Shown here: positions 44,576 through 60,934 of the stretch, one piece after another
Position numbering within the stretch: the first letter of the stretch is position 1
Layout of the letters: each line of letters begins with the position of its first letter
Assembly: GCA_050250435.1 (NCBI GenBank)
Contig: JBFWOR010000011.1
Span: 41,561-105,560 of the forward strand
DNA length: 64,000 nt
Source of the DNA: Pirellulales bacterium
GTDB taxonomy: Bacteria > Planctomycetota > Planctomycetia > Pirellulales > PALSA-1355
Reading direction: 5' to 3'
The notes under the pieces: generated by a model
Told to the model about the DNA's origin: nothing
Databases searched by the model: none
The model's input: only the letters and a program-made list of their open reading frames with translations
Made by a program: the position numbers and the translations under genes

Positions 44576-44603
44576 TTGACAGGGCCGCGCCACGTCGTAT
44601 GGT
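44576..44603 (+). promoter_or_regulatory. Candidate sigma70-type promoter ahead of the type IV filament cluster
   Basis: TTGACA (44576-44581), 16 nt spacer, TATGGT (44598-44603), 44 nt after the nadC stop. Confidence 0.35.
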
Positions 44604-44645
44604 TTCGATGCACTTGCGCCTTTTGGGGAGGGGCGCAGGGCACGG

Positions 44646-44695
44646 TACGGCAGGGGTAGCTAGGAGCTTGAGGGGACCCTGCCGTATCTTTTTTT
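44646..44695 (+). terminator. Strong intrinsic terminator / possible leader attenuator
   Basis: Perfect 10-bp stem TACGGCAGGG (44646-44655) / CCCTGCCGTA (44677-44686), 21-nt loop, then TCTTTTTTT (to 44695). Confidence 0.7.
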
Positions 44696-44776
44696 GGTCC
44701 GGCCTTGCTTCCGCCGGCGCGCTGCGTTCCCCGCCTGCCGTGCCCGATTCCTGCCCTGACTGACGTCGTTGCCACC

Positions 44777-45358
44777 ATGTTATCTGCCCACCGCGCGTCG
44801 CGCTGCGCATTTACGCTCGTGGAGGCGATGGTCTCGACCGCGATCACCGTGATCGCCGGCAGCGCCGTGCTGTTGGGCATTGCCAGCGCAATTTCCACGG
44901 CGGACGACGTGCTGGCGCGCACGCAGGCGGCCGGCATGGCGGAGCAGCTCATGGACGAGATCGCTGCGCAGCGCTATTGCGAAAACGAGTCCGCCCCCTA
45001 CGAGTATCCGCTCGGGCCGCAAGGCGCCGCGCGCCCGCAGTTCAACGATCTCGATGACTACGCAGGTCTCGTGTCGCAGCCGCCTCTAGATCGCTTCGGC
45101 GTCGCCCTGGGAACCGGCAACGAAGAGGGAGGCCAGCGAGATCCCCATTTTTGCGCGGGCGCGAACGACTTTGCACAGTGGCAACAGAACGTTTCGGTCT
45201 ATTACGTCGACGCGGCGAATCCTGCGCAAGCCTTGCCGGCCGGACAGACCAGCGACATGCGCGCGGTCGAGGTGACGATCAGTCGCGTGGAAAGCAGCGG
45301 GGCGGCGCGACCCTTGGCGAAACTGCGACGGGTGTTCAGCTATGTGCCCATTCAATAG
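44777..45358 (+). CDS. Minor pilin/pseudopilin-like protein (prepilin-type N-terminus)
   Basis: ATG at 44777. MLSAHRASRCAFTLVEAMVSTAITVIAGSAVLLGI has the (A/G)FTLxE methylation motif plus a hydrophobic helix. 193 aa. Confidence 0.75.
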   Translation: MLSAHRASRCAFTLVEAMVSTAITVIAGSAVLLGIASAISTADDVLARTQAAGMAEQLMDEIAAQRYCENESAPYEYPLGPQGAARPQFNDLDDYAGLVSQPPLDRFGVALGTGNEEGGQRDPHFCAGANDFAQWQQNVSVYYVDAANPAQALPAGQTSDMRAVEVTISRVESSGAARPLAKLRRVFSYVPIQ

Positions 45359-46178
45359 TGCCAGCCGCGACCATCTCCGCCGCCGCGTGCGCGCTGGGCG
45401 GCGCGCGGTGAGCCTGATCGAAATGATGCTGGCCGTGGCCGTGCTGGCGCTGATGGCCGGCGCGCTCGGCATGCTTACGCAAGCGGTGCGTGTCAGCACG
45501 GCCTATGCCGACGGCACCACCGCCGCCACGCAGCACGCGCGCGTGGCGCTGTACCGCATCGACACGGCGGTGTCGCTGAGTTTTGCGAACGAGACATTCC
45601 CCGGCGCCATGGTCTTCGCGGCGACCGTCGGCGGCTACACCTATCCCGACACCCTGGTGGTCTGGCGGCCTGCGGCGGAACCGGCCGCTCCCGGCGGGCT
45701 GCCCCGGTTCGACGAGATTGTGGTGTTCTGCCCCAATCCGAACGCGCCGCACGAGCTGCTGGAAATCACCGCCCCTAACGATACGCGAACCGTGCCGGAT
45801 ACCGGCGATCTGGCGACGTGGAACACGGAACTTGCGGCACTCAAGACCGGCGCCAACAGCAGCCGCGTGGTGCTGAGCGATCTGCTGCGGAGCGCCGCAC
45901 CCACCGGCGACCCGGCCGCGGCCCGCGGCGCCGTGCGCTTTGCCGTCGACTTGCGACCCACCGCCGCGGACTGGAACAGCTTTCGCGCGGCGACGCTGGC
46001 CTTCGCCAGCCTGTCCTGGCCGCAATCGGTATACGGCGCGAAAGCCGGGCTGCGACAAACGCGCGTGAGCTGCGAATTGCAGCTGGTCTGCGCGCGCAGC
46101 GGCGCGGCCGATCGCGCCACACTGCCTCCGCTGACGTTCTTTGGCTCGGCGACCGGCTACGGAGAGCTGCGACAATGA
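45342..46178 (+). CDS. Minor pilin/pseudopilin-like protein
   Basis: 278 aa. 17-nt overlap with the upstream gene. RRAVSLIEMMLAVAVLALMAGALGML is a pilin-like N-terminal helix with E at +5. Confidence 0.7.
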   Translation: MCPFNSASRDHLRRRVRAGRRAVSLIEMMLAVAVLALMAGALGMLTQAVRVSTAYADGTTAATQHARVALYRIDTAVSLSFANETFPGAMVFAATVGGYTYPDTLVVWRPAAEPAAPGGLPRFDEIVVFCPNPNAPHELLEITAPNDTRTVPDTGDLATWNTELAALKTGANSSRVVLSDLLRSAAPTGDPAAARGAVRFAVDLRPTAADWNSFRAATLAFASLSWPQSVYGAKAGLRQTRVSCELQLVCARSGAADRATLPPLTFFGSATGYGELRQ

Positions 46179-47998
46179 GCCATAGCGCCCATCATCGTCG
46201 TCGCTGCAGCGCGTCCGGCCGGCGCGCGGGCATCACCGTGCTGGTCGTGCTGGCCTTGGTCTCGGTCGCGCTGGCCATGTCGTACGCCATACTGTGCTCG
46301 CAAATGAGCGCCATTCATTTGCAGAGCAATAGCGATCGTGGTCATCAGGCCGAACAAGCCGCACTGGCCGGGATGAGCGCCGCGCTGCGCGCCGTGCGGT
46401 TGTCGAACTGGTCGGGCGTGGCTGCGCCCTTGAACGCGTCGATCAGCGCCACGGATGCCTACAGCGTGACGTACACGGCAGGCGACGCGTCGCTCACGCC
46501 CAGCGACCCCGACTATGCGAAGTATCCCTACCGTCTCACAGTGACTTCGACGGGCACTTCGGTCGATCCGGCGCAACCTACCGTCGTGGCCACGCATCGG
46601 GTGCAAGCCGTGCTAGAGCTGGTTCCGCGCAAGCTCGATCCAGGGCCGGCGAACTGGTCGACGATGGCGGCGTATACGATCTACCAGATGACCAACACCG
46701 ACGTTTTCCTGGCGCTGCCGTGTCACATCGAGGGACCGGCGCGGTTGGCGAGCCCGTTGCGAATGGCCGACGCGTATTCCTGGCATGCCGGCTCGCGCTC
46801 TCGGTATTTCAGCGATCTGAATCTCATGCGCTCGGGCGCCAACGAAGTACAAACGGTCACGCGCTCGGGCACCAGCGGCGGCACCTTCACACTCTCATTC
46901 AACGGCGCAACCACCGCTCCCATCGTGTGGAGCTCATCGACGTCGACCGTGCAAACGCGGCTGCAGAGCCTGGCTACGATTGGCAGCGGCAACGCCACCG
47001 TTGGCGGCAGTCCGGGCAGTTGGACGGTCACCTTCGGCGGCACGCTGGCCGCGACCGACGTGGCGACGCTCAGCGCGAACATTGCCGGCTTGAGCGGTCC
47101 GGCGCCGGCCATCAATGTGGCCACGACCATCCCAGGCGGACCCGGCACGGCCGACTACCGGCCCTTCAGCGGCCCCGTTTCGATGCCCACGTCGCTTACC
47201 GATTCCACGAACCTGGGACTGTTGACCAATGAACTGGGGCTCAGCGTCAACGACATCGTGACGAACGCGGAAGCGTTTCCTAGCCTCGGCAGCGTGGCCA
47301 CCTACCGCCTGTATCCGGGCGGGCCGCAGTACAACCTGGCACAACTGCCGGCAAGCGTTTCGAACACCACGTTGACGCCGGACCCCGTGACGAATCCCTT
47401 GGGCCTGTATTACGCCAGCTCGAGCTCCTCGCTGGGCAACAACGTCACCATTCGCGGCACAGTGATCACCGGCGTGGACCTGAACATCACGGGCACCAAC
47501 GTGCTCATCGATCCGCACGACTTGCAGCCGCTCGACGGCACCACCAGCGCCGTGCGGCTGCCCAGCGTGATCGCTTTGGACGACCTGACGGTCGCCGGCG
47601 GCGCGCAAGCCACTATCAACGGCGTGGTCTGCGTGGGCGACGATTTTGTGGTCGACGAGGGAACCGAGGGCACGTCGCTCAGCGTGCAGGGCCGCGTCAT
47701 CGCCTCAGGCGATATCACCATCGGTTGTCGCAGCGAGTGGAAGAACTACGCTAGCGGCCAATGGGACACGTTCTACGCCGATTTTCAAGCGCAATTGAGC
47801 CTGCCCGGGGCGGTCTCCTTTTTTCCCATGTGGATGTCGGCCGCGCAAGGCCGAAACTATGTTCCGAATATCACCCTCCGCCCGGCCAGCGACAGCAGCG
47901 TGTCGCAATGGCAGAACCTGTCGCAGCCCGTCTATGCCGTGCTGGAGGGAGACAGCGGTTTGCACTGGGACCTGGTGAGTTGGACCGACAGACTGTAA
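46175..47998 (+). CDS. Large (607 aa) pilin-like / GspK-position protein
   Basis: ATG at 46175 overlaps the upstream stop (ATGA). RRAGITVLVVLALVSVALAMSYAIL is an N-terminal helix without the conserved Glu, as in GspK/PilX-type tip subunits. A long beta-rich body follows. Confidence 0.7.
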   Translation: MSHSAHHRRRCSASGRRAGITVLVVLALVSVALAMSYAILCSQMSAIHLQSNSDRGHQAEQAALAGMSAALRAVRLSNWSGVAAPLNASISATDAYSVTYTAGDASLTPSDPDYAKYPYRLTVTSTGTSVDPAQPTVVATHRVQAVLELVPRKLDPGPANWSTMAAYTIYQMTNTDVFLALPCHIEGPARLASPLRMADAYSWHAGSRSRYFSDLNLMRSGANEVQTVTRSGTSGGTFTLSFNGATTAPIVWSSSTSTVQTRLQSLATIGSGNATVGGSPGSWTVTFGGTLAATDVATLSANIAGLSGPAPAINVATTIPGGPGTADYRPFSGPVSMPTSLTDSTNLGLLTNELGLSVNDIVTNAEAFPSLGSVATYRLYPGGPQYNLAQLPASVSNTTLTPDPVTNPLGLYYASSSSSLGNNVTIRGTVITGVDLNITGTNVLIDPHDLQPLDGTTSAVRLPSVIALDDLTVAGGAQATINGVVCVGDDFVVDEGTEGTSLSVQGRVIASGDITIGCRSEWKNYASGQWDTFYADFQAQLSLPGAVSFFPMWMSAAQGRNYVPNITLRPASDSSVSQWQNLSQPVYAVLEGDSGLHWDLVSWTDRL

Positions 47999-48019
47999 CC
48001 CATTTGTGGAGTACTAGAT

Positions 48020-48265
48020 ATGAAACGCGATACCGGCTTGCGGTGGGCCCTGCTCATCGCCGCCAATGTGGCCGTGTGGTGCGTGCTAAGCTTGCAACAG
48101 AGCCTGGGCGCCAATAACCAAACAACCGTTGCAGGCACTTCGATCGCCACGCAACAACGCGCGGAAATGATCAGCCAGCTCAAAGAAATCAAAACGTCCA
48201 TTAACATCCTCGTGCAATACCGGCGCAACCAGTCGCTGCCGGAGCCGGATCCGATTCAGCCCTAA
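48020..48265 (+). CDS. Small single-pass membrane protein (81 aa)
   Basis: MKRDTGLRWALLIAANVAVWCVLSL, then a coiled segment. It sits inside the pilin gene string and no family is recognised. Confidence 0.5.
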   Translation: MKRDTGLRWALLIAANVAVWCVLSLQQSLGANNQTTVAGTSIATQQRAEMISQLKEIKTSINILVQYRRNQSLPEPDPIQP

Positions 48266-48269
48266 ATCC

Positions 48270-48866
48270 ATGTTCGTCACCAGCCACTCATCGCGCAGGG
48301 CGTTCACGCTTTTGGAAGTGTTGATCGTGCTGGCTGTGCTGGGGGTGCTGGCGGCGCTGTTGATTCCGAGTACGAATCCCGACGCGTACGCCCGGCTCGA
48401 GATGGCGGCGGCCGCGGTGGGTCGCGATATCGAGTACGCGCGCAGCCTGGCCATCACCCACGACGACAACTACCGAATCGACTTCGACCTGGCGAACAAC
48501 CGTTGGACGCTGGTGCACAGCGGCTCGAACTCGGCACTCAACACCCTGCCGATCACGCCGCTGCATCCGGCCACCGATTCGCCCGATCAACAGACGACGA
48601 CGCTCGGGGAGTTGCCCGGGGTAGGCGGCACCACGCGGTTGCACGCCGTGTGGGCGCTGGCCGTGCCGCCGCAAACGATCACCGACATCGAGTTCGAGCC
48701 GTTGGGTGAAACAACGCGCAGCGAGCCGACCCTGGTCTGGCTGGCAACCGGCACGGGCGACAGCACACGTTACCTTTCGGTCCGAATCAACCCGGTAACT
48801 GGACTCTATTGGATCGAAGGTTTTCGCGCCACGGAACCCAGCCCGGCCACGTACACGATTCCTTGA
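48270..48866 (+). CDS. GspH/FimT-like pseudopilin
   Basis: MFVTSHSSRRAFTLLEVLIVLAVLGVLAALLIPS is a prepilin motif. ARLEMAAAAVGRDIEYARSLAI resembles the GspH helix-then-beta layout. 198 aa. Confidence 0.75.
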   Translation: MFVTSHSSRRAFTLLEVLIVLAVLGVLAALLIPSTNPDAYARLEMAAAAVGRDIEYARSLAITHDDNYRIDFDLANNRWTLVHSGSNSALNTLPITPLHPATDSPDQQTTTLGELPGVGGTTRLHAVWALAVPPQTITDIEFEPLGETTRSEPTLVWLATGTGDSTRYLSVRINPVTGLYWIEGFRATEPSPATYTIP

Positions 48867-48892
48867 CGAACGGAACCCCCAGCGGGCACGCC

Positions 48893-49951
48893 ATGGTCAC
48901 TTTCCTAGGTCAGAAGCGTCACGGGCCGATCGGCCTCGAGCTTGGCGGCCGCGCCGTGCAGATGATGCAATTCTCGGCCGACCACGACCGCTTGCTGGAG
49001 AGCGTGCGCTGGGAGCTGCCGTTGGCGAGAGCGGAGGAAACGCCGGCGGCGCGCCGGGAGCGCCAGGTCGAGGCCCTCGAACAGGCCCAGCAGGGGCGCA
49101 AATTCCGCGGCCGCGACGTCGTCGCCTGCCTGAGCGCCAGCGACCTGTTCGTGCAGAACATCCGCGTCCCCAAAGGACCGCTGGCAGAGCTGGCCAACCT
49201 GGTGCAGCAGGAAGCCGCCTCACGCTTGCCGTTCCCCGCGGCCGAAGCCGATGTCCGTTTTGTCTGCGCCGGCGAAGTTCGGCAAGGCGATCAGATCCGT
49301 CGCGAGATCATTCTGCTGGCGTGTCACCGGCCGGTGATCGACGAAATGCTGGCCACGATCGACGCCGCCGACTTGCGCGCCGTGGCCATCGACGTCGAGC
49401 CGGCGGCGCTACTGCGCGCCTACGTTAAGCAATTCCGCCGCGACGACGACCAGTCGAAACGCGTCATGTTCGTGCGACTCGGGGCCGCCAACACCACGGT
49501 CGTTATTGCCCAAGGCACGGCCGTCTATTTTGTCAAATACATCGACGTGGGCGGCGATCACATGGACCGGGCCGTTGCCGAGCACCTCAAGATCTCGCCC
49601 GAGGAGGCCAGCACGCTACGTGCCAACAATGGCGACCGCCGCGCGGATCAGCAAGACCCGGAAATCGCCGCCAGCGTGGCGGAAGCGACGCGCGGCGTGA
49701 TCGAGCGGTTGCTGACCGAACTGTCGCTCTGTCTGCGGTATCACAGCGTGGCCTTTCGCGGGCAAGCGATCGACCGCGTGGTGCTGGGCGGTGCCGACGC
49801 GACGCAAGCCTTGGCCGAGTCGCTGGGACCGCGCCTGGACTTGAAATGTCACCTGGGCGATCCGCTGCGTAGTTTCGAGGCGCCGCTGCCGGCGCGGCGC
49901 CCGCAATGGGACGTCACGGCCGGGCTGGCGCTGCGCAACTTGACGAACTGA
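48893..49951 (+). CDS. pilM: Type IV pilus assembly protein PilM (actin-like ATPase fold)
   Basis: ATG at 48893. IGLELGGRAVQMMQ, AIDVEPAALLRAY, VRLGAANTTVVI, IDVGGDHMDRAV and VVLGGADA are actin-fold phosphate and adenosine motifs in PilM order. Confidence 0.85.
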   Translation: MVTFLGQKRHGPIGLELGGRAVQMMQFSADHDRLLESVRWELPLARAEETPAARRERQVEALEQAQQGRKFRGRDVVACLSASDLFVQNIRVPKGPLAELANLVQQEAASRLPFPAAEADVRFVCAGEVRQGDQIRREIILLACHRPVIDEMLATIDAADLRAVAIDVEPAALLRAYVKQFRRDDDQSKRVMFVRLGAANTTVVIAQGTAVYFVKYIDVGGDHMDRAVAEHLKISPEEASTLRANNGDRRADQQDPEIAASVAEATRGVIERLLTELSLCLRYHSVAFRGQAIDRVVLGGADATQALAESLGPRLDLKCHLGDPLRSFEAPLPARRPQWDVTAGLALRNLTN

Positions 49952-49962
49952 GGCACGCCAAC

Positions 49963-50739
49963 GTGGCACGCGAGTTGAACTCACTGGTCGAGATCGATTT
50001 CCTGCCCGTCGCGTATCGCGAGCGGGGCATGCAGCGCCGCGCCTACGCGTGGCGCGTGGCGGCAGCGGTGGCGATTGTTGCCTTCCTCGGCGCCACCACG
50101 CTGTGGCAGCGCACGCATCATGCCCATGTGCTCGAGCGGCTTGCGGACATCGAATCCCAATTCGCCGACGCGGCTGCCAAGAACGCGCACCTCAAGGCGG
50201 CCACCATCGGGCTGGAAAGCGAACGCAAAACGGCCGAACTCCTCACGTTCTTGCGCCATCCCTGGCCGCGCACCCGCGTGTTGTCCGGCATCCTGGGGCC
50301 TTTGCCTGCGGATATTGCCTTAAACGAGCTGCACTTGGGTCACGAGACCATTGCGCGAACCGACAAGCCGGCCGTCGCGCTGCCCGAGACCAAGACGGCG
50401 CCGACCGACAAGGCTTCGCAACAGGCTGCCGACCTGGAACGTCTGTTGCGCGAGCACGGCGAACGCGAAGACTACGCTGATCTCCAGGGTGAAGCGGGCG
50501 ACGCGGCCACGCTGCATGAATACCTGGCGCGGCTCGGAACCGATCCGCTGTTCGATCGTGTCGACCTGCGCTCGCTCGAACACGCGCCGCCAAACGCGGC
50601 CGGCGAGCCGGGCCCAGTTCGTTTTTCCGTGCGCATTGTCCTGCGCGCAGCGCACGGCCAGGCCATCGACAGCCCGACCACGCCGCCGGCCGCCACCCAA
50701 TCCGCCGCGCCCTTGGCGCAGCGAGGAGGCACGCCGTGA
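49963..50739 (+). CDS. pilN: PilN-like bitopic inner-membrane protein
   Basis: GTG at 49963, 12 nt after the pilM stop. EIDFLPVAYRER is the conserved PilM-binding N-terminal peptide type. TM helix WRVAAAVAIVAFLGATTLW, then a coiled coil. Confidence 0.65.
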   Translation: MARELNSLVEIDFLPVAYRERGMQRRAYAWRVAAAVAIVAFLGATTLWQRTHHAHVLERLADIESQFADAAAKNAHLKAATIGLESERKTAELLTFLRHPWPRTRVLSGILGPLPADIALNELHLGHETIARTDKPAVALPETKTAPTDKASQQAADLERLLREHGEREDYADLQGEAGDAATLHEYLARLGTDPLFDRVDLRSLEHAPPNAAGEPGPVRFSVRIVLRAAHGQAIDSPTTPPAATQSAAPLAQRGGTP

Positions 50740-51296
50740 GCAGCCTCACCCGAATTCGCATGACGCGGGCCAATTGGTTGGTGATCGGCGTGGTGGCGGT
50801 TGCCGCCGTGGCGTTCATGAGCCTGGTGTTCGTGCCGCAGATGCGCGCCATCTCGCGCTCGATCGACGAGCTCGACAGTAAGCTCGCCTTTGTGCTCGAG
50901 GCGCAGAAGTCGGCGCGGACCACCGAATTGATCGAGCGCCAACGCGCGGAGATGCAAGCCTATATCAACCGCTACGACGACCAACTGCTCGAACAAGACG
51001 ACCTGCCCGACTTGTTCCGGCAGGTGAGCCAGTTCGCCAAGTCGCACGACGCAGTCACCACGCGATTCGAGCCGCATCCGCCCGTGCCATTGCGGAGCAT
51101 GCGGATGACGCCGCTCAGCCTGGGCGTTAGCGGGCCGCTGGCTTCCATCCACGGCTTGCTGCACGAGTTGGAATCGCTGCCGGTGCGGATTTGGGTAGAC
51201 GACATGAAGCTGAAGGCGGCGCGCGAGCCTGGGAAAGCTGCGGAGTGTGACCTCCATTTGGTCGTCTTTATCGATAATCCCGAAAAAACCGATTAG
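50736..51296 (+). CDS. pilO: PilO-like bitopic inner-membrane protein
   Basis: GTG at 50736 overlaps the upstream stop (GTGA). TM helix WLVIGVVAVAAVAFMSLVFV, a coiled coil, then a ferredoxin-like C-terminal domain pattern. Confidence 0.6.
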   Translation: MSSLTRIRMTRANWLVIGVVAVAAVAFMSLVFVPQMRAISRSIDELDSKLAFVLEAQKSARTTELIERQRAEMQAYINRYDDQLLEQDDLPDLFRQVSQFAKSHDAVTTRFEPHPPVPLRSMRMTPLSLGVSGPLASIHGLLHELESLPVRIWVDDMKLKAAREPGKAAECDLHLVVFIDNPEKTD

Positions 51297-52139: not shown

Positions 52140-52195
52140 CCGCCACGCCAATCCACGCCGCTGGCGGCGAAAGTACGCAACGATCACGGACGATC

Positions 52196-55464: not shown

Positions 55465-55683
55465 TGCGCATCAGCGCGTCCGCATCGCCGCGCCTGCGTG
55501 CTGGTCTGCCGTGCCAACGGCGTCCGAGCAAGCTCACCATACGGTGAGTCAGGCGGGCAGCCGACGCGGATGGCACGCTCGCACCATCTCCCCGCAATTG
55601 ACTTGCCGCGCCGATGGTCTGCGCCTGTGCGCTCTCCCGGTGCGGCGGCACAACGCACGCCCCAACCTGCCTGATACACAACG

Positions 55684-57162
55684 ATGATTCAATTTCACGT
55701 GCCTCTTGTTTTGTCATGCGTGGCGCTGGCCGCGTCGTTGGCATTGGCCTGCGACCGCATTGTGGGCCCGTCGGCCACCTACCAGTCGGCCCTGATCTCG
55801 TGGGTCTTGCTGACCGTGGGCGCGGGCCTGCCGGTGGCGCTCATGGGCTGGTTTGTGCGCCGCGCGCGCGAAGCCCACGATGCTACGCAGCGCGGGCTCG
55901 AGGTGCTGGTGCGGGGCGATATGCGCAAGCTGGCCGACCCTGCATTCGACGCCACTTTCGCCGCGCCACCGTTGGAACCACAAAGTGCCGAAGCCCTGTT
56001 GCAACTGCGCGAGCGCCTCACGGGCGTGGGCGAGCAAATCCAAGTTCTTGAGCAAGGCCGCGCCGGCGTCGAAAGCCGCGCCCGGCGCCTCGCAGCGCAA
56101 GTGCAACGGATGGAAGCCGTGCTGGGCGGCTTCTCCGAGCCGTTTCTGGCCATCGACAAATTCGACGATCTCATCCTCTCGAACGCCAGCGCGGAGCAGC
56201 TGTTCGACTTCGAGAATGGCAGCACCGAGGACCGGGCACTGGCCCGGCTTGTGCACTGCCAGAAACTTGTCGACCTGTTGACCGATACCCGCAAGCGCAA
56301 CGGCGCCATTCAACGCAGCTGCGAAATCACGGTGGATGACCGCCTGGGCATGTCACATTGCTATCGGGTGACCGCCCGCGGAATTCCCGGCCAGTCGACC
56401 ACCGACGGCGACGGCGGCCAGGGAGCCGTGGCCGTGCTGTACGACATCAGCGCGCACAAGGCCATGCAAAAACGCAACGCCGAGTTCGTCTCGGCGGTGA
56501 GCCACGAAATGAAGACGCCGCTGGCCTGCATCAAGGCCTACGTCGAACTGCTGGTCGACGGCGACGCCGAGGACGAAGCCACGCAGGAACAGTTCTACGA
56601 AATCATCAACAGCCAGACCGATCGCCTGGAGCGACTCGTCGACAACATGCTGAACCTGGCGCGAATCGAGGCCGGGGTGGTATCGGTGCAGAAACAGAGC
56701 CAGTCGCTCAACGCGCTCTTGGAAGAGGCGCGCAGCGTGGTCGGCCCGGCTGCCGAAGCAAAGGGCATTGCGCTGACGAGCGATTTGAGCCCGCTGTACC
56801 TGGGGGTGTACGTCGACCGCGACATGGCGCTGCAAGCGGCGATCAATTTGCTCTCGAACGCCATCAAGTACACGCCCGCCGGCGGACACGTCACGCTGCG
56901 CAGCCGGATGATCGACAACCAGGTGCGATTCGACGTGGAGGATACCGGCGTGGGCCTGTCTCCCGAAGATCGGCACCGCGTGTTCGAAAAGTTCTATCGC
57001 GTGAACAAAGACAAAGGCATGGCCAGCGGCACCGGTCTGGGCCTGCCCTTGGTCAAGCACATTGTCGAAGACGTTCACGGCGGCCGGATCATGGTCGAAA
57101 GCACGCCGGGGCAGGGGAGTGTGTTCAGCGTGTTTCTGCCCACCGCGGCCACCCTCGACTAA
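55684..57162 (+). CDS. Sensor histidine kinase (2 TM, coiled-coil/PAS-like, HisKA, HATPase_c)
   Basis: H-box FVSAVSHEMKTPLACI, N-box LLSNAIKYTP, G1 VEDTGVGL, G2 GTGLGLPLV. Two N-terminal TM helices. Confidence 0.9.
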   Translation: MIQFHVPLVLSCVALAASLALACDRIVGPSATYQSALISWVLLTVGAGLPVALMGWFVRRAREAHDATQRGLEVLVRGDMRKLADPAFDATFAAPPLEPQSAEALLQLRERLTGVGEQIQVLEQGRAGVESRARRLAAQVQRMEAVLGGFSEPFLAIDKFDDLILSNASAEQLFDFENGSTEDRALARLVHCQKLVDLLTDTRKRNGAIQRSCEITVDDRLGMSHCYRVTARGIPGQSTTDGDGGQGAVAVLYDISAHKAMQKRNAEFVSAVSHEMKTPLACIKAYVELLVDGDAEDEATQEQFYEIINSQTDRLERLVDNMLNLARIEAGVVSVQKQSQSLNALLEEARSVVGPAAEAKGIALTSDLSPLYLGVYVDRDMALQAAINLLSNAIKYTPAGGHVTLRSRMIDNQVRFDVEDTGVGLSPEDRHRVFEKFYRVNKDKGMASGTGLGLPLVKHIVEDVHGGRIMVESTPGQGSVFSVFLPTAATLD

Positions 57163-57201
57163 TTCGTTCCACTCCACCCGTCCTTTTGGAGAGCTCGTGC
57201 C

Positions 57202-57591
57202 ATGCCCAAAAAAGTGCTTCTGTGTGACGACGAGATTCATATTCTGCGGGCGGCGGAAATCAAAATCAGCCGCGCCGGCTACGACGTTTCGATTGCCCAC
57301 GACGGCGAAGAGGCCTGGGAACTCATGGCCCAGGAACGCCCGGACGTGTTGGTGACCGACCTGCACATGCCGCGCTGCGACGGGCTGGAACTTACCGCTC
57401 GCATCCGCGGACACGAGACACTCAAAGACGTTCCGATCATCGTGCTCACGGCCAAAGGATTCGAAATGCCGCGGCAAGAGCTGATGGACAAGTGGCACAT
57501 CGTGGCCATCCTGTCCAAGCCGTTCAGCCCGCGCGAACTCGTGGGCCTGATCGACAAGACACTCTCCGGCGCTTGCACAACCACCGTTTAA
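57202..57591 (+). CDS. Single-domain response regulator (CheY-like receiver)
   Basis: 129 aa. LLCDDE acidic pocket, phospho-acceptor in VLVTDLHMP, VLTAKG and LSKPFSP. No output domain. Confidence 0.9.
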   Translation: MPKKVLLCDDEIHILRAAEIKISRAGYDVSIAHDGEEAWELMAQERPDVLVTDLHMPRCDGLELTARIRGHETLKDVPIIVLTAKGFEMPRQELMDKWHIVAILSKPFSPRELVGLIDKTLSGACTTTV

Positions 57592-57608
57592 CAACCGCGA
57601 CCCATGCC

Positions 57609-57935
57609 ATGAACCTGCCCACCGAACTTTTTGGACGCGTTCTGGTCGTGCACACGCCGGAGGAGCTGTGCGTCGACCAGTGCGAACGTTTCACCGCGTT
57701 CCTGTCGGCGCTGCCCGAGCGGCAGTTGGTGCTGGACATGGACCATACCGAAACACTCGACAGCGACAGCCTGACCACGATCCTCGATTGCCAGGAGCGG
57801 CTGCGGCGCGCACAAGGCGACCTGAAGATCGCCACCACCAACGGGATCAACCGCAAGATCTTTGAAATTACCCGGCTCGACCAGCAGCTCGAAGTGTACG
57901 AGAGCGTGGTCGACGCCGTGAACAGTTTTCAGTAG
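57609..57935 (+). CDS. STAS-domain protein (anti-sigma-factor-antagonist fold)
   Basis: ATG at 57609. 108 aa. VLVVHTPEELCVDQCERFTAFL...LVLDMDHTETLDSDSLTTILDCQERLRRAQGDLKIATTNGINRKIFEITRLDQQLEVYESV. The D-S-x-(S/G)-L segment lies at the usual phospho-serine position. Confidence 0.8.
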   Translation: MNLPTELFGRVLVVHTPEELCVDQCERFTAFLSALPERQLVLDMDHTETLDSDSLTTILDCQERLRRAQGDLKIATTNGINRKIFEITRLDQQLEVYESVVDAVNSFQ

Positions 57936-57966
57936 CCCACTTTCACGAGCCACCAGACCCCAGCTC

Positions 57967-59709
57967 ATGAGTTCATCCGTCGCAGTCCGGCAACGTCTGG
58001 GCGATCTGCTGATCGAGCGTGGATATCTCACGCCCGAGAACCTTGCCGCTGCGCTGGAACAGCAGAAGCATCAGCCGGCCGGGTTGAACAAGCTGCTGGG
58101 CGAAATTCTCGTGGAGCTGTCGTATTGCACCGAAGACCAGGTAGTCGAGTGCCTGGCGCTGGAATACGGCGTGCCCTACGCCAAGCTGGAACCGCGCTTG
58201 TCCGACGCGCGCAGCATCGACGTGCTGCCGCGCGAGTACATCGAAGAGAACCTGGTGCTGCCGCTCTTTTTGGTTCGCGGTGTGCTCACGGTGGCCCTGC
58301 CGGAGCCGTCGAACCTGTTTTTGATCGACGAGGTGCGCCAGCTCACGCAGCTGGAAGTGCAGATCGTGGCTGCCACCACGCGCGATATTCGACGCGTGAT
58401 CACCACGTTGCCCAACTCGAAGGTGTTCGTCATCGACGACATCATCGAGGACTCGGAAGTCCACGATGTGACGCTGATCGAAGACGCCATCGAAGACATT
58501 GGCGATATCGAGGAGGTCGCCGGCCAATCGCCCGTCATCCGGCTGGTGAACTACCTGATCTTCACGGCGGTGAAGGAAGGGGCCAGCGATATTCACATTG
58601 AGCCGGCCGAGCATTGCGTGCGCATTCGCTATCGCATTGACGGCCGGTTGTACAAGGCCCTGGAGGTGCCCGGCCACCTGCTGAACGCCGTGACCAGCCG
58701 CATCAAGATCATGGGCGGCATGGATATCAGCGAGCGCCGCTTGCCGCAGGACGGCCGCATTCACGTGATGCTCGAACGTCGCAAGATCGATCTGCGCGTC
58801 AGCACGTTTCCCACGCATCGCGGAGAGAAAACCGTGATCCGCGTGCTCGACACCCACAGCGTCAGCCTGGTGCTGGAAGACCTGGGCTTTGCCGAAGACG
58901 TGCTGCGCGGTTTTCAGCGGCACATTACCGACCCCAACGGCATCATCCTGGTCACCGGCCCCACCGGCAGCGGTAAATCCACAACGCTCTACGCGGCACT
59001 CAACAGCATCAGCTCCATGGAGAACAACGTCTGCACGGTGGAAGACCCTATCGAGTATCACCTGCCGCTGATCAATCAGTTTCAGGTGCAGGAGAAGGTC
59101 GGCCTCACGTTCTCCAAGGCCCTGCGCACCCTGCTGCGGCAAGATCCCGACGTGATCATGGTGGGCGAAGTGCGCGACGAGGAAACGGCCCGCACCGCAA
59201 TTCAGGCCGCGCTGACGGGCCACCTGGTGTTCAGCACGCTGCACACGAACGACGCCTGCTCGGCCATCACGCGGCTGATCAACATGGGCGTCGAGCCGTA
59301 CCTGATCGGCGCGGCCTTGAACATGGTGCTCGCCCAGCGGCTGGTGCGGCGCATCTGCCCCAAGTGCCGGCAAACGTACGAGCCGCCCCGCACCCTCCGC
59401 AAGGCGATCGAACGCATGGGCTACGCGATCGAGACGTTTCAGCGCGGCGTGGGCTGCCGCCGTTGCCGCAATTCGGGCTTCAGCGGCCGCATTGGCGTCC
59501 ATGAGCTGCTGGTCATTTCCGACGAGCTGCGCGACGTGATCGTGAACAACCCCTCGCTGGCCGCCATCCGCCAATCCGCCTTGCGCGGCGGCATGATCAC
59601 ACTGCGCCAGGACGGCTTTCGAAAAGTGCGCGAAGGCGTGACCACCATCGAAGAGATTCTGCACGTGGCCGGCGACTCGGGCGAGGGAGGCGATGGCGGG
59701 GCCCGGTAG
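57967..59709 (+). CDS. GspE/PilB-family type II/IV secretion ATPase with MshEN-type N-terminal domain
   Basis: 580 aa. Walker A GPTGSGKSTT, Asp box, Walker B DPDVIMVGEVRD, His box, and a tetracysteine CPKC...CRRC. N-terminal RLGDLLIERGYLTPENLAAALEQQ. Confidence 0.95.
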   Translation: MSSSVAVRQRLGDLLIERGYLTPENLAAALEQQKHQPAGLNKLLGEILVELSYCTEDQVVECLALEYGVPYAKLEPRLSDARSIDVLPREYIEENLVLPLFLVRGVLTVALPEPSNLFLIDEVRQLTQLEVQIVAATTRDIRRVITTLPNSKVFVIDDIIEDSEVHDVTLIEDAIEDIGDIEEVAGQSPVIRLVNYLIFTAVKEGASDIHIEPAEHCVRIRYRIDGRLYKALEVPGHLLNAVTSRIKIMGGMDISERRLPQDGRIHVMLERRKIDLRVSTFPTHRGEKTVIRVLDTHSVSLVLEDLGFAEDVLRGFQRHITDPNGIILVTGPTGSGKSTTLYAALNSISSMENNVCTVEDPIEYHLPLINQFQVQEKVGLTFSKALRTLLRQDPDVIMVGEVRDEETARTAIQAALTGHLVFSTLHTNDACSAITRLINMGVEPYLIGAALNMVLAQRLVRRICPKCRQTYEPPRTLRKAIERMGYAIETFQRGVGCRRCRNSGFSGRIGVHELLVISDELRDVIVNNPSLAAIRQSALRGGMITLRQDGFRKVREGVTTIEEILHVAGDSGEGGDGGAR

Positions 59710-59740
59710 GAATGCCGCGGCCAGCACTCGCAAATGACGC

Positions 59741-60934
59741 ATGCTCTACCAATACACGGCCAAGGATTCGCGCGGCAGGTCGACCAGGGGCCAGCTGGAC
59801 GCGCATAGCCCCGACGACGCGGTCCAGCGGCTGCGGCAGGAAGGTTTTCAGGCTGTGCAGATTCGCGACGAAGAGGCCTCCGCGCCGCTCTTTGCGCGGC
59901 CGGTGCGTTGCCGCGACATCGTGTATCTCACCAGCCAGTTGGCCATCATGTCGCAAACCGGCATCACGCTCTCCACGGCGCTGGGCGGCATTTTGCAGCA
60001 AGAGGCCAATCCAACTCTCAAGGCCGTGCTGGCGGATCTGAAGTCGTCGGTCGAATCGGGCGACGATTTTTCGACCGCGCTGGCCCGCCACCCCAAGCTG
60101 TTTGACCGTACGTATGTCTCACTCGTCAAGGCGAGCGAAGCCACCGGTCTCTTGGGCGAAATGCTCGAGTCGATCGCCAATTATCTGGCCAAGGAGGCCG
60201 AGTCGCGCAGCAAGGTCCGCGCGGCGCTGGCTTATCCGGCCGTGATGATGCTCGTGGCCGTCGGCGTGACGCTCTTCTTGCTCACCTACGTGCTGCCCAA
60301 GTTCACGCCGCTGTTCAAGAATCGCGGCATGAAACTGCCCAAGCCCACCATCGTGATGATGGCCGTGTCGGACTGCCTGATCAACTACTGGTATTTCTGG
60401 CTGGCCGGGATTGCGCTGGCAGTGATCGGGTTTCTATACGGCCGCCGCACGAAGCCGGGCCGCAAAGTGCTCGACTGGCTCAAAATCAACACGCCGCTCG
60501 TCGGCCCCATGTTCCGCAAAGTGACCATCAGCCGCAGCATTCGCACGCTGGGCACGATGATCTCCTCGGGCGTGCCCATGCTCGAAGCCATCCAGCTTTC
60601 CAGCGACGTGGCCGGCAACGTCTACTACGAAAAGCTGTGGCACAGCGTGCTCGACGACGTGGCGTCGGGCAATCAGATCTGCACCTCCCTGGCCGGCAGC
60701 AACCTGTTTCCCAGCGTGCTGGTGCAGATGATTTCCTCGGGCGAAGAGACCGGCAAGCTCGACGACGTGCTGGCCCGCGTCAGCGGTTTCTATGACCGCG
60801 AGGTGGAAACCTCGCTCAAAACCGTGACCAGCCTGATCGAGCCGGTGATGATCACGGTGATGGGCGTGGTAGTGGGCGGCATCGGCATGGCGCTCATGCT
60901 GCCGATCTTCAGCCTCAGCCGCGCGGCAGGCTAG
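59741..60934 (+). CDS. GspF/PilC-family inner-membrane platform protein
   Basis: 397 aa. MLYQYTAKDSRGRSTRGQLDA is the typical YxYxAxDxxG start. Two T2SSF repeats (SQLAIMSQTGITLSTAL / RTLGTMISSGVPMLEAI) and three TM segments. Confidence 0.95.
   Translation: MLYQYTAKDSRGRSTRGQLDAHSPDDAVQRLRQEGFQAVQIRDEEASAPLFARPVRCRDIVYLTSQLAIMSQTGITLSTALGGILQQEANPTLKAVLADLKSSVESGDDFSTALARHPKLFDRTYVSLVKASEATGLLGEMLESIANYLAKEAESRSKVRAALAYPAVMMLVAVGVTLFLLTYVLPKFTPLFKNRGMKLPKPTIVMMAVSDCLINYWYFWLAGIALAVIGFLYGRRTKPGRKVLDWLKINTPLVGPMFRKVTISRSIRTLGTMISSGVPMLEAIQLSSDVAGNVYYEKLWHSVLDDVASGNQICTSLAGSNLFPSVLVQMISSGEETGKLDDVLARVSGFYDREVETSLKTVTSLIEPVMITVMGVVVGGIGMALMLPIFSLSRAAG

What the first reader, a model, noticed from the sequence alone, without database searches (positions are those of the whole stretch)
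44576..60934. Compact type IV filament (T2SS/T4P-hybrid) machine with no major pilin, prepilin peptidase or retraction ATPase in cis
Seventeen co-directional genes run from 44777 to 60934.
- Coupling: several junctions overlap (17 nt at 45342, ATGA at 46175, GTGA at 50736, TGATG at 54446-54450), which argues for one co-translated assembly unit.
- Content: four pilin-like proteins, PilM/N/O, a PilP-position protein, a secretin, a TPR lipoprotein, a GspE/PilB ATPase and a GspF/PilC platform.
- Hybrid character: the pilin set is T2SS-like (GspH-like, a GspK-position giant, two others), while the alignment complex is T4aP-like (PilMNOP-Q).
- Missing in cis: an abundant fibre subunit, a PilD/GspO peptidase and a PilT.
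- Possible links: the only GspG-like N-termini in the window are the two DUF1559/H-X9-DG proteins 8-11 kb upstream. A ComEA DNA receptor sits 1.3 kb upstream.
What the machine polymerises or exports is therefore open. Options are a secretion piston for DUF1559-type proteins, a DNA-uptake pilus, or a surface fibre.
Basis: partly seen in the sequence, partly recalled or inferred. Interest (0 to 1): 0.72.

Follow-up and report, generated by a model that had tools for sequence, protein, structure and literature searches.

The report
Planctomycete type IV pilus-like assembly cluster
This is a 16-gene cluster, conserved across the planctomycete order Pirellulales, that builds a type IV pilus-like machine with a large, variable tip protein and its own regulators, while its main fibre subunit is encoded elsewhere and unknown; it is an uncharacterised variant of a known machine, not a new kind.

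Summary
The cluster is real. Sixteen (not seventeen) co-directional, tightly packed genes run from 44777 to 60934. They encode three canonical pilin-like proteins, a 607-aa pilin-fold giant, an 81-aa membrane protein, PilM, PilN, PilO, a GspC/PilP-like HR-domain protein, a secretin and a TPR lipoprotein.

The same order recurs in nearly all 80 related genome loci examined (Pirellulales, including Thermoguttaceae). None has a major pilin, prepilin peptidase or second ATPase within 10 kb.

The architecture is type IVa pilus-like: separate PilM and PilN, a PilB with a c-di-GMP-binding N-terminus, and a TPR lipoprotein coupled to the secretin. Sequence scores tie between T2SS and T4aP models, and all fall below curated cut-offs. 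"Hybrid" is therefore weakly founded, and trans-encoded parts are normal for T4aP.

The giant tip pilin carries lineage-variable modules: none, a phage-decoration-like domain, or LamG. That favours an exposed adhesive or ligand-binding fibre. The fibre subunit remains unidentified. Links to DUF1559 proteins and ComEA are not supported by evidence here. This is a new variant of a known kind, of moderate interest.

The parts
44644..44695 (+). Terminator-like hairpin (12-bp stem, -24.8 kcal/mol) followed by T7. It probably ends nadC and marks the upstream boundary of the cluster.
44777..45358 (+). G1: minor pilin-like protein, 193 aa. It has a class III signal motif (A|FTLVE) and a head domain with no known family.
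   Evidence: N_methyl 18.3 bits, sub-threshold. The motif is conserved in 41 orthologues, with -1 = G in 31 and A in 10. The profile hits PDB pilins only through the N-terminal helix.
45342..46178 (+). G2: minor pilin-like protein, 278 aa (or 256 aa from 45408). It has an A|VSLIE motif and a lineage-specific head domain.
   Evidence: TIGR02532 17.9 > 16.3. Only 304 clusters in 1.84 billion representatives, all about 270 aa. 34/36 members carry N_methyl and no other family. PDB matches involve the helix only.
46175..47998 (+). G3: 607-aa giant pilin-fold protein without Glu5 (GspK/PilX-like position). It has an N-terminal 56-residue helix plus beta-sheet, an inserted ~95-aa domain (about residues 222-320) and a beta-rich C-terminal domain. 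It is the proposed tip subunit.
   Evidence: AF2 model, pLDDT 90.4. The insertion matches mycobacteriophage Bxb1 capsid/tail-tip decoration domains. Weak global match to the Thermus competence pilin ComZ. In orthologues the insertion is absent or replaced by LamG.
48020..48265 (+). G4: conserved 81-aa protein with one N-terminal hydrophobic segment and a short helix. Role unknown.
   Evidence: orthologues in 29 loci; no family
48270..48866 (+). G5: GspH/FimU-type minor pilin, 198 aa. Its N-terminal helix is of the major-pilin type (E5, G14, P22).
   Evidence: N_methyl 30.5 bits and GspH 22.0 > 21. ComGD/GspH sub-threshold. The profile matches the N-terminal helices of Geobacter PilA and many major pilins (E 9e-10).
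48893..49951 (+). PilM: actin-like cytoplasmic alignment protein. Alternative starts are 48863 and 48809.
   Evidence: PilM_2 77 bits; TIGR01175 116.7 bits, below the 133 cut-off; gene calls
49963..50739 (+). PilN-like bitopic protein. An N-terminal IDFLP motif (the PilM-binding INLLP type) precedes the membrane segment. An alternative ATG start is at 49906.
   Evidence: PilN 18 bits, weak; motif present in 65/67 orthologues
50736..51296 (+). PilO/GspM-like protein.
   Evidence: PilO 35.8 bits and T2SSM_b 26.5 bits; GspM_XpsM 27 bits
51366..52139 (+). G9: the protein in the PilP/GspC position. It has an N-terminal membrane anchor (no lipobox), a Pro/Ala-rich linker and a C-terminal HR-like beta domain.
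   Evidence: GspC_delta 25 bits. The orthologue profile hits the GspC HR domain 2lnv, E 0.0099. T2SSB C-terminus weak.
52196..54448 (+). Secretin, 750 aa. It has a low-complexity N-terminal region, STN/N0, Secretin_N, the secretin core and a conserved ~145-aa C-terminal extension. No AMIN domain was found.
   Evidence: Secretin 139 bits, STN 37 bits. GspD 209.6 vs PilQ 205 bits, both below cut-off. Best PDB match is P. aeruginosa PilQ. Invariant C-terminal columns.
54448..55464 (+). TPR lipoprotein. Its start overlaps the secretin stop (TGATG). It is a candidate pilotin/assembly factor of the PilF/PilW/Tgl type.
   Evidence: TPR families. TIGR02521 PilW 58.9 bits and Tgl 21 bits, both sub-threshold. 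A lipobox-like xxGC occurs in 46/59 orthologues. Junction shown.
55684..57162 (+). Membrane histidine kinase (HisKA + HATPase_c, PhoR/PnpS-like), preceded by the only long gap (219 nt).
   Evidence: conserved in place in 54 loci
57202..57591 (+). Stand-alone receiver-domain response regulator with no output domain.
   Evidence: Response_reg 86 bits; conserved in place
57609..57935 (+). STAS-domain protein (anti-sigma-antagonist fold).
   Evidence: STAS 37.5 bits; TIGR00377 35.7 bits, sub-threshold; median 59% identity across 52 loci
57967..59709 (+). PilB-type extension ATPase. It has an N-terminal c-di-GMP-binding MshEN motif, a second MshEN domain, the T2SSE ATPase core and a tetracysteine motif.
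   Evidence: T2SSE 453.6 bits, MshEN 59.8 bits. NF053729 c-di-GMP motif 54.3 > 38; GspE 588.9 vs PilB 588.6 bits. Full-length best PDB matches are T4aP PilB of Geobacter and Myxococcus. The motif occurs in 36/41 and the tetraCys in 40/41 orthologues.
59741..60934 (+). PilC/GspF platform protein with two T2SSF domains.
   Evidence: T2SSF 192 bits; GspF 366 vs Myxococcus PilC 342 bits, both sub-cut-off

Best explanation
The cluster encodes a type IVa-pilus-type, envelope-spanning filament-assembly machine that is conserved across the order Pirellulales.

Shown by domain, motif and synteny evidence:
- PilC platform and PilB extension ATPase in the inner membrane.
- A PilM-PilN-PilO alignment complex.
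- A membrane-anchored HR-domain protein (G9) in the position that links this complex to the secretin.
- A secretin, with a TPR lipoprotein whose gene is translationally coupled to it.
- Four pilin-fold proteins (G1, G2, G3, G5) plus a small membrane protein (G4).

Inferred from how homologous systems work:
- The four pilin-like proteins form the priming/tip complex from which a fibre is polymerised. G5 (GspH/FimU-like, with a major-pilin-type helix) would be the adaptor to the main subunit. The Glu5-less giant G3 would sit at the very tip.
- The main subunit, the prepilin peptidase and any retraction ATPase are supplied from other loci, as in multi-locus T4aP systems.
- Assembly is gated by c-di-GMP binding to the PilB N-terminus and by the embedded kinase / receiver / STAS module.

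G3 carries a module that differs between lineages: none, a phage-decoration-like domain, or a LamG lectin-type domain. I therefore infer that the product is a surface-exposed fibre whose tip binds an external ligand (attachment or polymer capture), rather than a periplasmic secretion piston.
For: - Components and motifs.
- Tight coupling of the genes.
- The 16-gene order is kept across nearly all 80 loci at 42-74% secretin identity, with every gene under conservation (median 28-77% identity).
- Exactly three canonical class III motifs plus G3 per locus.
- G3 has a pilin fold at pLDDT 90 with a variable inserted module. A LamG-bearing orthologue sits in the same position.
- In some lineages the minor-pilin/PilMNO/G9/secretin half occurs without the ATPase half: L065 and L085. 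The system is therefore modular and multi-locus, like T4aP.
- T4aP are multi-locus and peptidases can be shared: PMC6668835.
- P. limnophila encodes a stand-alone PilT-like gene, a GspG-like gene and A24 peptidases away from its machine clusters: supplement of PMC10632474.
- Polar fibres with T4P-like basal structures, and fibres that bind branched carbohydrates, are reported in planctomycetes: PMC8303584.
Against: - No major subunit, peptidase or PilT was identified. The genome outside the window could not be searched.
- ATPase, platform and secretin score no better against T4aP than against T2SS models, and all fall below curated cut-offs.
- G9 is membrane-anchored like GspC, not a PilP-type lipoprotein.
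- G1 and G2 have no recognisable head domain, so a 'priming complex' is inferred from position and N-termini only.
- There are no expression data: the source is a landfill metagenome with DNA runs only.
- No experimental phenotype exists for any orthologue. P. limnophila pilQ deletions were made but no phenotype was reported (PMC11958385).
Confidence: 0.55

Rival explanations
1. It is a T2SS-like secretion machine. A short periplasmic pseudopilus, primed by G1/G2/G3/G5 and built from a GspG-like subunit encoded elsewhere, pushes folded exoproteins (for example hydrolases) through the secretin. No retraction ATPase is needed.
For: - No PilT in cis in any locus.
- G9 has a GspC-like topology and HR domain.
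- G5 passes the Pfam GspH threshold.
- PilO also matches GspM.
- GspE/F/D models score as well as PilB/C/Q models.
- Denise et al. found T2SS-like systems in many non-proteobacterial phyla (PMC6668835).
Against: - PilM and PilN are separate rather than fused as GspL.
- The ATPase has a PilB/MshE-type extra N-terminal c-di-GMP motif.
- A TPR lipoprotein sits in the pilotin position, not a small GspS-type pilotin.
- There is no gspG in the operon.
- A lineage-variable module (LamG, phage-decoration-like) on the tip pilin is hard to explain for a piston that stays in the periplasm.
Confidence: 0.2
2. The machine polymerises or displays DUF1559 / H-X9-DG proteins, the largest planctomycete paralogue family. 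They would be either heteropolymeric fibre subunits or pilin-anchored cargo. This would be a bacterial counterpart of the archaeal bindosome assembly system.
For: - Both DUF1559 proteins in the window have class III signal motifs with E5, G14 and P22, and GspG is their best-scoring NCBIfam model (sub-threshold).
- In the AF2 model a 52-residue N-terminal helix matches the major pilins of Neisseria and Thermus.
- P. limnophila has 68 paralogues, two of them essential, with no known function (PMC10632474).
- There is a precedent: archaeal sugar-binding proteins with class III signal peptides need a Bas ATPase/platform system (PMC3047682).
Against: - No DUF1559 gene lies within 10 kb of the secretin in any related locus.
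- Those in the window are on the other strand, separated from the cluster by uvrB, an ECF sigma/anti-sigma pair, an amidohydrolase, comEA and nadC.
- The DUF1559 head has no solute-binding-protein fold match in the PDB.
- Planctomycetes carry other T4F systems that could serve these proteins, including the essential secretin-less E-T-E-F operon Plim_0401-0410.
Confidence: 0.12
3. It is a DNA-uptake (competence) pilus that works with the nearby ComEA-like DNA receptor.
For: - A ComEA-like HHH_3 protein lies 1.3 kb upstream.
- The ComEA-nadC-cluster arrangement recurs in about a dozen related loci.
- G3 gives a weak structural match to the Thermus competence pilin ComZ (E 9e-3, probability 0.69, TM 0.21).
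- T4aP machines drive DNA uptake in diderms (PMC6668835).
Against: - ComEA is on the opposite strand behind nadC and is absent upstream in many loci that keep the cluster, so shared local synteny is enough to explain it.
- The ComZ match is weak.
- No comEC or dprA lies nearby.
- The planctomycete genetic-tools paper I looked at does not use the term 'natural transformation'.
- To my knowledge planctomycetes are not reported to be naturally transformable.
Confidence: 0.08
4. G5 itself is the fibre subunit, so nothing essential to the fibre is missing in cis.
For: - The G5 N-terminal helix is of the major-pilin type (E5, G14, P22). Its profile matches Geobacter PilA and many major pilins at E down to 9e-10.
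- It lies directly upstream of pilM.
Against: - Its head passes the Pfam GspH threshold, and its best NCBIfam hits are the minor pilins ComGD and GspH.
- It sits inside an operon with no promoter of its own, in stoichiometric coupling with low-copy machine parts.
Confidence: 0.05

Closest known systems
Type IVa pilus systems (Myxococcus xanthus, Pseudomonas aeruginosa, Thermus thermophilus)
   Same: - A PilB ATPase with N-terminal MshEN-type domains; the best full-length PDB matches are Geobacter and Myxococcus PilB.
- A PilC platform, and separate PilM, PilN and PilO.
- An HR-domain protein before a PilQ-like secretin; the best PDB secretin match is P. aeruginosa PilQ.
- A TPR lipoprotein of the PilF/PilW/Tgl kind.
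- A minor-pilin set that includes a GspH/FimU-type member and a large tip pilin.
- Parts of the system encoded at other loci.
   Different: - Nearly everything except the major pilin, peptidase and PilT is fused into one operon.
- All equivalog scores are below the NCBIfam cut-offs.
- The HR-domain protein is membrane-anchored, not a lipoprotein.
- The secretin has no AMIN domains and carries a conserved ~145-aa C-terminal extension.
- The G1 and G2 heads belong to no known family.
- A kinase / receiver / STAS module is embedded between the pilotin-like gene and pilB.
Type II secretion system (Gsp/Eps/Xcp)
   Same: - Homologous ATPase, platform, secretin and GspM/PilO-like protein.
- A GspH-type pseudopilin.
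- A bitopic HR-domain protein like GspC.
- No retraction ATPase in the operon.
   Different: - No GspL fusion and no gspG in cis.
- No PDZ or coiled-coil domain on the GspC-like protein.
- A TPR lipoprotein instead of a small pilotin.
- The ATPase has an additional c-di-GMP-binding N-terminal motif.
- The tip pilin carries variable adhesin-like modules.
MSHA pilus of Vibrio (msh secretory operon)
   Same: - As I recall the msh operon (mshI-J-K-L-M-N-E-G), the gene order is similar: alignment genes, secretin, TPR protein, then a c-di-GMP-binding ATPase and the platform. This resemblance comes from memory and was not tested.
- PilT is encoded elsewhere in that system too (PMC9815625, listed).
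   Different: - The secretin scores lower against MshL (157.5 bits, cut-off 250) than against PilQ or GspD.
- There is no MshM-like ATPase.
- The pilin genes precede rather than follow the machine genes.
- The lineage is unrelated.
Akkermansia muciniphila Amuc_1098-1102 pilus-like cluster (PVC superphylum)
   Same: - PilM and the secretin give distant hits to the Amuc_1101 and Amuc_1098 family models (82 and 66 bits).
- It is another PVC-group type IV pilus-like cluster of unclear function.
   Different: - Scores are far below the cut-offs (650 and 750 bits).
- The gene content differs and there is no Amuc_1100-like protein.
- This cluster is not a member of those families.
Thermus thermophilus ComZ (large competence-associated tip pilin)
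   Same: - G3, like ComZ, is a very large pilin-fold protein with a beta-rich domain added to the pilin scaffold, encoded among the minor pilins.
   Different: - The structural match is only weak (TM 0.21-0.24, E 9e-3).
- There is no sequence similarity.
- No DNA-binding evidence exists for G3.

Membership tests
Type IVa pilus (T4aP) | PilB-type extension ATPase (hexameric T2SSE core, tetracysteine motif, N-terminal MshEN-type domains) | tested here: met
   T2SSE 453.6 bits and MshEN. c-di-GMP motif NF053729 54.3 > 38. Full-length best PDB hits are PilB. Motifs are conserved in orthologues. However, the TIGR02538 equivalog score of 588.6 is below its 675.65 cut-off.
Type IVa pilus (T4aP) | Separate PilM, PilN and PilO alignment proteins, with a PilN N-terminal PilM-binding peptide | tested here: met
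   PilM_2 77 bits, PilO 35.8 bits, PilN 18 bits (weak). IDFLP motif in 65/67 PilN orthologues.
Type IVa pilus (T4aP) | PilP: an inner-membrane lipoprotein with an HR domain that contacts the secretin N0 domain | tested here: inconclusive
   G9 has an HR-like C-terminal domain (GspC HR domain 2lnv, E 0.0099; GspC_delta 25 bits). It has a membrane anchor and no lipobox, which is the GspC topology.
Type IVa pilus (T4aP) | PilQ secretin with a TPR lipoprotein pilotin (PilF/PilW/Tgl) | tested here: inconclusive
   The secretin core and STN/N0 are present. PilQ scores 205 bits against a 284 cut-off and ties with GspD at 209.6. The TPR lipoprotein is translationally coupled, but PilW scores 58.9 bits against a 154 cut-off.
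Type IVa pilus (T4aP) | A type IVa major pilin | tested here: not met
   None in the window and none within +-10 kb of the secretin in the related loci. The rest of the genome could not be searched.
Type IVa pilus (T4aP) | PilD prepilin peptidase and PilT retraction ATPase present in the genome | not testable with these tools
   Absent in cis. P. limnophila, from another order, has A24 peptidases and PilT-like genes at other loci.
Type IVa pilus (T4aP) | Core minor pilins (FimU/GspH, PilV/GspI, PilW/GspJ, PilX/GspK types) | tested here: inconclusive
   G5 passes Pfam GspH (22 > 21). G3 has a pilin fold and lacks Glu5, as GspK/PilX do. G1 and G2 have class III motifs, but their heads match no family.
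Type II secretion system (T2SS) | GspL (a fused PilM-like cytoplasmic domain and PilN-like membrane/periplasmic part) | tested here: not met
   PilM and PilN are separate genes here and in all related loci.
Type II secretion system (T2SS) | GspG major pseudopilin encoded with the machine | tested here: not met
   No GspG-like gene in the cluster or within 10 kb of the secretin in the related loci.
Type II secretion system (T2SS) | GspD, GspE and GspF equivalogs | tested here: not met
   GspD 209.6 < 351.35, GspE 588.9 < 630.25, GspF 366.2 < 424.
Type II secretion system (T2SS) | GspC: a bitopic protein with an HR domain plus a PDZ or coiled-coil domain | tested here: inconclusive
   The membrane anchor and HR-like domain are present. 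No PDZ domain was found.
MSHA-type pilus | MshL secretin equivalog and MshM | tested here: not met
   MshL 157.5 < 250.2. No MshM/ExeA-like gene in the cluster.
Competence (DNA-uptake) T4P | Functional coupling to ComEA, ComEC and DprA, and a DNA-binding pilin | not tested
   Only co-location with a ComEA-like gene on the opposite strand and a weak ComZ-like structural match.

The most novel reading that the evidence does not exclude
This secretin-containing machine is the assembly or display apparatus for the DUF1559 / H-X9-DG proteins. These are the largest paralogue family of Planctomycetia: each has a major-pilin-type N-terminal helix and a large head domain that matched no solved structure in the PDB fold search. 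The cell would then build heteropolymeric or cargo-decorated fibres, a bacterial analogue of the archaeal bindosome. This would explain both why the machine has no dedicated major pilin and what the paralogue family is for.
Probability: 0.1. Interest if true: 0.85.

Novelty: new variant of a known kind. Interest (0 to 1): 0.42.

Why it matters
Planctomycetes make polar fibres and take up whole polysaccharides, but the machines behind this have not been assigned, and no orthologue of this cluster has a reported phenotype.

This analysis defines an order-wide, 16-gene unit with clear boundaries. It contains a predicted c-di-GMP-gated ATPase, its own kinase / receiver / STAS control module, and a tip pilin that swaps binding modules between lineages. 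That gives concrete deletion targets: the secretin, PilB and G3.

It also yields a direct experiment: shear the fibres and identify the major subunit. That single experiment could settle whether the fibre is made of a conventional pilin or of DUF1559 proteins, whose function has been open since the first planctomycete genome.

If the answer is a conventional pilin, the cluster is an ordinary, though divergent, T4aP.

Tried and rejected
1. Riboswitch or leader RNA upstream of G1. Rfam with an E-value threshold over 43-64 kb gave only a sub-threshold CcsR1 match inside pilN. The leader folds no better than shuffles (z = -0.11).
2. It is a single consensus match, fewer than expected by chance, and it lies upstream of a terminator-like hairpin.
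3. Transcript evidence. Only DNA runs from landfill and sludge metagenomes hold the sequence.
4. Assigning G1 and G2 to GspI/J or PilV/W. Orthologue profiles against PDB sequences, a phmmer scan of 1.84 billion representatives, and a Pfam scan of 36 family members gave only N-terminal-helix or N_methyl matches.
5. The idea that DUF1559 (Pfam name SBP_bac_10) has a solute-binding-protein fold. The AF2 model (pLDDT 80.6) matched only pilin helices in the PDB, so the bindosome analogy has no structural support.
6. G3 identity by sequence. There is no Pfam or NCBIfam hit, and PDB sequence hits cover the inserted domain only.
7. A conserved downstream partner. The Legionella_OMP-like porin and the dCache kinase are kept only in the closest relatives.
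8. Whole-genome search for PilD, PilT or a major pilin.
9. Equating this cluster with the essential P. limnophila 'type II secretion' operon Plim_0401-0410. I rejected this. That operon is E-T-E-F plus six hypotheticals, and none of its genes is annotated as a secretin.

Full report
**What is there**

On the + strand, 16 genes run from 44777 to 60934. Domain searches give the following.

| Gene | Coordinates | Call |
|---|---|---|
| G1 | 44777-45358 | Pilin-like, A\|FTLVE motif |
| G2 | 45342-46178 | Pilin-like, A\|VSLIE motif |
| G3 | 46175-47998 | 607 aa, no family hit |
| G4 | 48020-48265 | 81 aa, one hydrophobic segment |
| G5 | 48270-48866 | N_methyl plus GspH just above threshold |
| PilM | 48893-49951 | PilM |
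| PilN-like | 49963-50739 | PilN-like |
| PilO/GspM-like | 50736-51296 | PilO/GspM-like |
| G9 | 51366-52139 | Protein in the PilP/GspC position |
| Secretin | 52196-54448 | STN, Secretin_N, Secretin |
| TPR lipoprotein | 54448-55464 | TPR lipoprotein |
| Histidine kinase | 55684-57162 | HisKA/HATPase kinase |
| Response regulator | 57202-57591 | Receiver domain only |
| STAS protein | 57609-57935 | STAS domain |
| PilB/GspE ATPase | 57967-59709 | T2SSE ATPase with MshEN |
| PilC/GspF platform | 59741-60934 | Two T2SSF domains |

All other gaps are at most 69 nt, except 219 nt before the kinase gene.
- The rest of the window holds typical planctomycete genes (DUF1501, PEP-CTERM proteins, DUF1559). 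It holds no prepilin peptidase, PilT or conventional pilin.

**Boundaries**

- nadC ends at 44532.
It is the only one in 20 kb, against 2.1 expected by chance.
- A strong hairpin plus T7 run follows it at 44644-44695. The promoter-like site is therefore most likely chance, the hairpin is probably the nadC terminator, and the real promoter is unidentified.
- No Rfam family or unusually stable fold lies in the leader.
- Downstream, the dCache Ser/Thr kinase (61078-63414) is present only in the window's own genome. The porin-like gene after it is kept only in the nearest relatives.

**Conservation**

- The window comes from GCA_050175055.1, a landfill-metagenome genome.
- A profile of the secretin retrieved 271 related stretches from species-representative genomes. 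The best 80 are Pirellulales, Thermoguttaceae, Pirellulaceae and unclassified planctomycete MAGs.
- In essentially every locus long enough to show it, the 16 genes occur in the same order, including kinase-receiver-STAS between the TPR gene and pilB.
- Median identity to the window ranges from 28% (PilO) to 77% (PilB).
- Each locus has exactly three canonical class III signal motifs (G1, G2, G5). No locus has an additional pilin, peptidase or second ATPase within 10 kb of the secretin.
- The residue before the cleavage site is Gly in most relatives. It is Ala in all three window proteins.
- Two informative exceptions keep the minor-pilin/PilM-N-O/G9/secretin half but lack the kinase-to-PilC half: a Rhodopirellula MAG (L065) and a Planctomycetaceae MAG (L085). 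The machine is therefore built from two modules that can sit at different loci.

**T4aP, T2SS or hybrid?**

Sequence scores do not decide. All scores below fall under the curated cut-offs.

| Component | T2SS model (bits) | T4aP model (bits) |
|---|---|---|
| ATPase | GspE 588.9 | PilB 588.6 |
| Platform | GspF 366 | Myxococcus PilC 342 |
| Secretin | GspD 209.6 | PilQ 205 |

Architecture is more telling.

- PilM and PilN are separate genes. PilN carries an IDFLP motif of the PilM-binding type in 65 of 67 orthologues. A T2SS would have the GspL fusion instead.
- The ATPase has, ahead of the shared MshEN/N1 domain, an extra N-terminal c-di-GMP-binding motif. NF053729 scores 54.3 bits against a cut-off of 38, and the RLGxxLLxxG...Q motif is present in 36 of 41 orthologues.
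- The ATPase aligns end to end with Geobacter and Myxococcus PilB (499 and 488 bits).
- The gene after the secretin is a TPR lipoprotein whose start codon overlaps the secretin stop. This resembles the PilF/PilW/Tgl kind of assembly factor rather than a small T2SS pilotin.
- The one T2SS-leaning trait is G9. It has a membrane anchor without a lipobox, a Pro/Ala-rich linker and a C-terminal domain. The profile of that domain hits the HR domain of GspC (2lnv, E 0.0099) and the GspC_delta model.
- A GspH-type pilin is common to both system types (FimU in T4aP; established knowledge), so it is not a T2SS mark.

I conclude that the machine has T4aP-type architecture with undifferentiated sequences. 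"Hybrid" overstates one GspC-like feature. Denise et al. show that T4aP are paraphyletic, diverse and multi-locus, that T2SS and MSH derive from them, and that peptidases are shared between systems (PMC6668835). Parts missing in cis are therefore unremarkable.

**The pilin-like proteins**

- **G5.** It has a major-pilin-type helix (E5, G14, P22). Its profile matches Geobacter PilA and many major pilins through that helix (E down to 9e-10). Its head passes only the GspH model.
- **G1 and G2.** They are pilin-like only through their N-termini. Orthologue profiles, a scan of 1.84 billion cluster representatives (304 hits, all about 270 aa) and Pfam scans of 36 family members found no known head domain.
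- **G3.** It was modelled at pLDDT 90.4.
  - A 56-residue N-terminal helix packs on a beta-sheet, which is the pilin fold. There is no Glu5, as in GspK/PilX-type tip subunits.
  - An inserted ~95-residue domain follows, then a beta-rich C-terminal domain.
  - The inserted domain matches decoration domains of the mycobacteriophage Bxb1 capsid and tail tip (32-34% identity, rmsd 3.0-3.8 Å).
  - Across orthologues this insertion is absent (~500 aa forms), present (~600 aa forms), or replaced by a LamG domain (~730 aa forms). A LamG form sits at the same position in its cluster.
  - The whole model gives a weak match to the Thermus competence pilin ComZ.
  - A tip subunit that exchanges binding-type modules between lineages argues for a fibre whose end meets the outside world.

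**What it polymerises**

This remains open.

- The two DUF1559 proteins (33729-34760 and 35145-36194, minus strand) do have GspG-like N-termini with E5, G14 and P22.
- The AF2 model of one of them shows a 52-residue helix matching Neisseria and Thermus major pilins. Its head matches nothing in the PDB, and in particular no solute-binding fold, despite the Pfam name SBP_bac_10.
- Nothing ties them to this cluster. They are separated from it by unrelated genes, and no DUF1559 gene lies in any related locus.
- Planctomycetes carry several type IV filament systems. From its annotation tables, P. limnophila has:
  - an essential secretin-less operon of two GspE-like ATPases, a PilT-like ATPase, a GspF-like protein and six planctomycete-specific proteins (Plim_0401-0410);
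  - an essential PilM (Plim_0076);
  - two Tad loci with A24 peptidases;
  - a stand-alone PilT-like gene, a GspG-like gene and 68 DUF1559 paralogues (PMC10632474).
- Three P. limnophila pilQ genes are dispensable, and no phenotype was reported (PMC11958385).
- R. baltica has pilT, pilB and pilC at a locus away from pilM (PMC2754498).

Trans-encoded partners are therefore plausible, but which ones serve this machine is unknown.

**ComEA**

The HHH_3 protein at 43076-43504 is on the minus strand, beyond nadC. The arrangement recurs in about a dozen loci and is absent in many others that keep the cluster. This fits local synteny rather than a functional unit.

**Mechanism proposed**

*Shown:* the parts list, their coupling and their conservation.

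*Inferred from homologous systems:*
- PilM-N-O and G9 align the PilC/PilB motor with the secretin. The TPR lipoprotein helps the secretin assemble, probably through the conserved ~145-aa C-terminal extension of the secretin.
- G1, G2, G3 and G5 prime a fibre, with G3 at the tip and G5 as adaptor.
- PilB extends the fibre from a trans-encoded subunit when c-di-GMP is bound.
- The kinase, receiver and STAS proteins modulate this locally.

I favour an exposed adhesive or ligand-binding fibre (confidence 0.55), which fits reports of polar fibres and carbohydrate-binding appendages in planctomycetes (PMC8303584). The rivals are a T2SS-like piston (0.2), DUF1559 assembly or display (0.12), DNA uptake (0.08) and G5 as the fibre subunit (0.05).

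**Verdict**

- The system is a new variant of a known kind: a divergent, uncharacterised, order-wide T4aP-type cluster. Its distinctive features are lineage-specific minor pilins, a modular giant tip pilin, a GspC-like connector and an embedded signalling module.
- Interest is moderate. It would rise sharply if the fibre subunit turned out to be DUF1559 proteins.

Noticed in passing
window 46838-47134 (G3 residues ~222-320): The domain inserted in the giant pilin is homologous (32-34% identity) to decoration domains of the mycobacteriophage Bxb1 major capsid and tail-tip cage proteins. It also turns up as the only matching segment in many ~900-aa proteins (the lower hits). It appears to be a widespread, unnamed small module shared by phage and cell-surface proteins.
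   Followed up: partly
window 54005-54445 (secretin residues ~603-750): The secretin has a ~145-residue C-terminal extension beyond the secretin core. Many of its columns are invariant across 14 diverse orthologues, and it has no family hit. It may be the docking site for the translationally coupled TPR lipoprotein.
   Followed up: no
window 33729-34760 (-) and 35145-36194 (-): Two DUF1559/H-X9-DG proteins. The AF2 model of one has a 52-residue helix of the major-pilin type, and its head has no PDB fold match. It does not match a solute-binding fold, despite the Pfam name SBP_bac_10.
   Followed up: partly
window 12993-14204 (-) and 14382-15044 (+): A 403-aa protein whose only recognisable feature is a C-terminal STN (secretin/TonB N-terminal) domain. 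It is divergently placed next to a HEAT/TPR protein. STN at the C-terminus without a secretin or TonB-receptor core is unusual.
   Followed up: no
window 8531-9211 (-), 24528-26357 (+), 27653-28528 (-): Three proteins end in PEP-CTERM sorting signals, which implies an exosortase system in this planctomycete. They are a DUF642 protein, a beta-lactamase-family protein and one protein with no other domain.
   Followed up: no
window 50024-50104 (+): A sub-threshold Rfam match to the CcsR1 sRNA (29.7 bits against a gathering score of 65.3, E about 1e-3) lies inside the pilN coding sequence. It is most likely chance.
   Followed up: no
L018 (CAVTYH010000006.1), 7400-16000: One Pirellulales MAG carries a decayed copy of the cluster: fragments of G3, G4, G5 and PilO, an intact-looking secretin, and a PilC fragment next to ORFs that look like transposase genes by eye (no family search was run on them).
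   Followed up: partly
L068 (JABMRB010001047.1): A contig labelled 'Candidatus Nealsonbacteria' carries the complete planctomycete cluster at 52-75% identity. It is almost certainly a mis-binned planctomycete contig.
   Followed up: no
L001/L006 (CAWDFN010000001.1, 7.8 Mb): In this long-read MAG, nadC, the STAS gene and pilB each appear split into two pieces. This looks like assembly frameshifts rather than real pseudogenes.
   Followed up: no
window 11227-11952 (+): A gene for 4-HFC-P synthase (methanofuran-biosynthesis type), 202.9 bits. From my own knowledge, this fits the C1-transfer genes known from planctomycetes.
   Followed up: no
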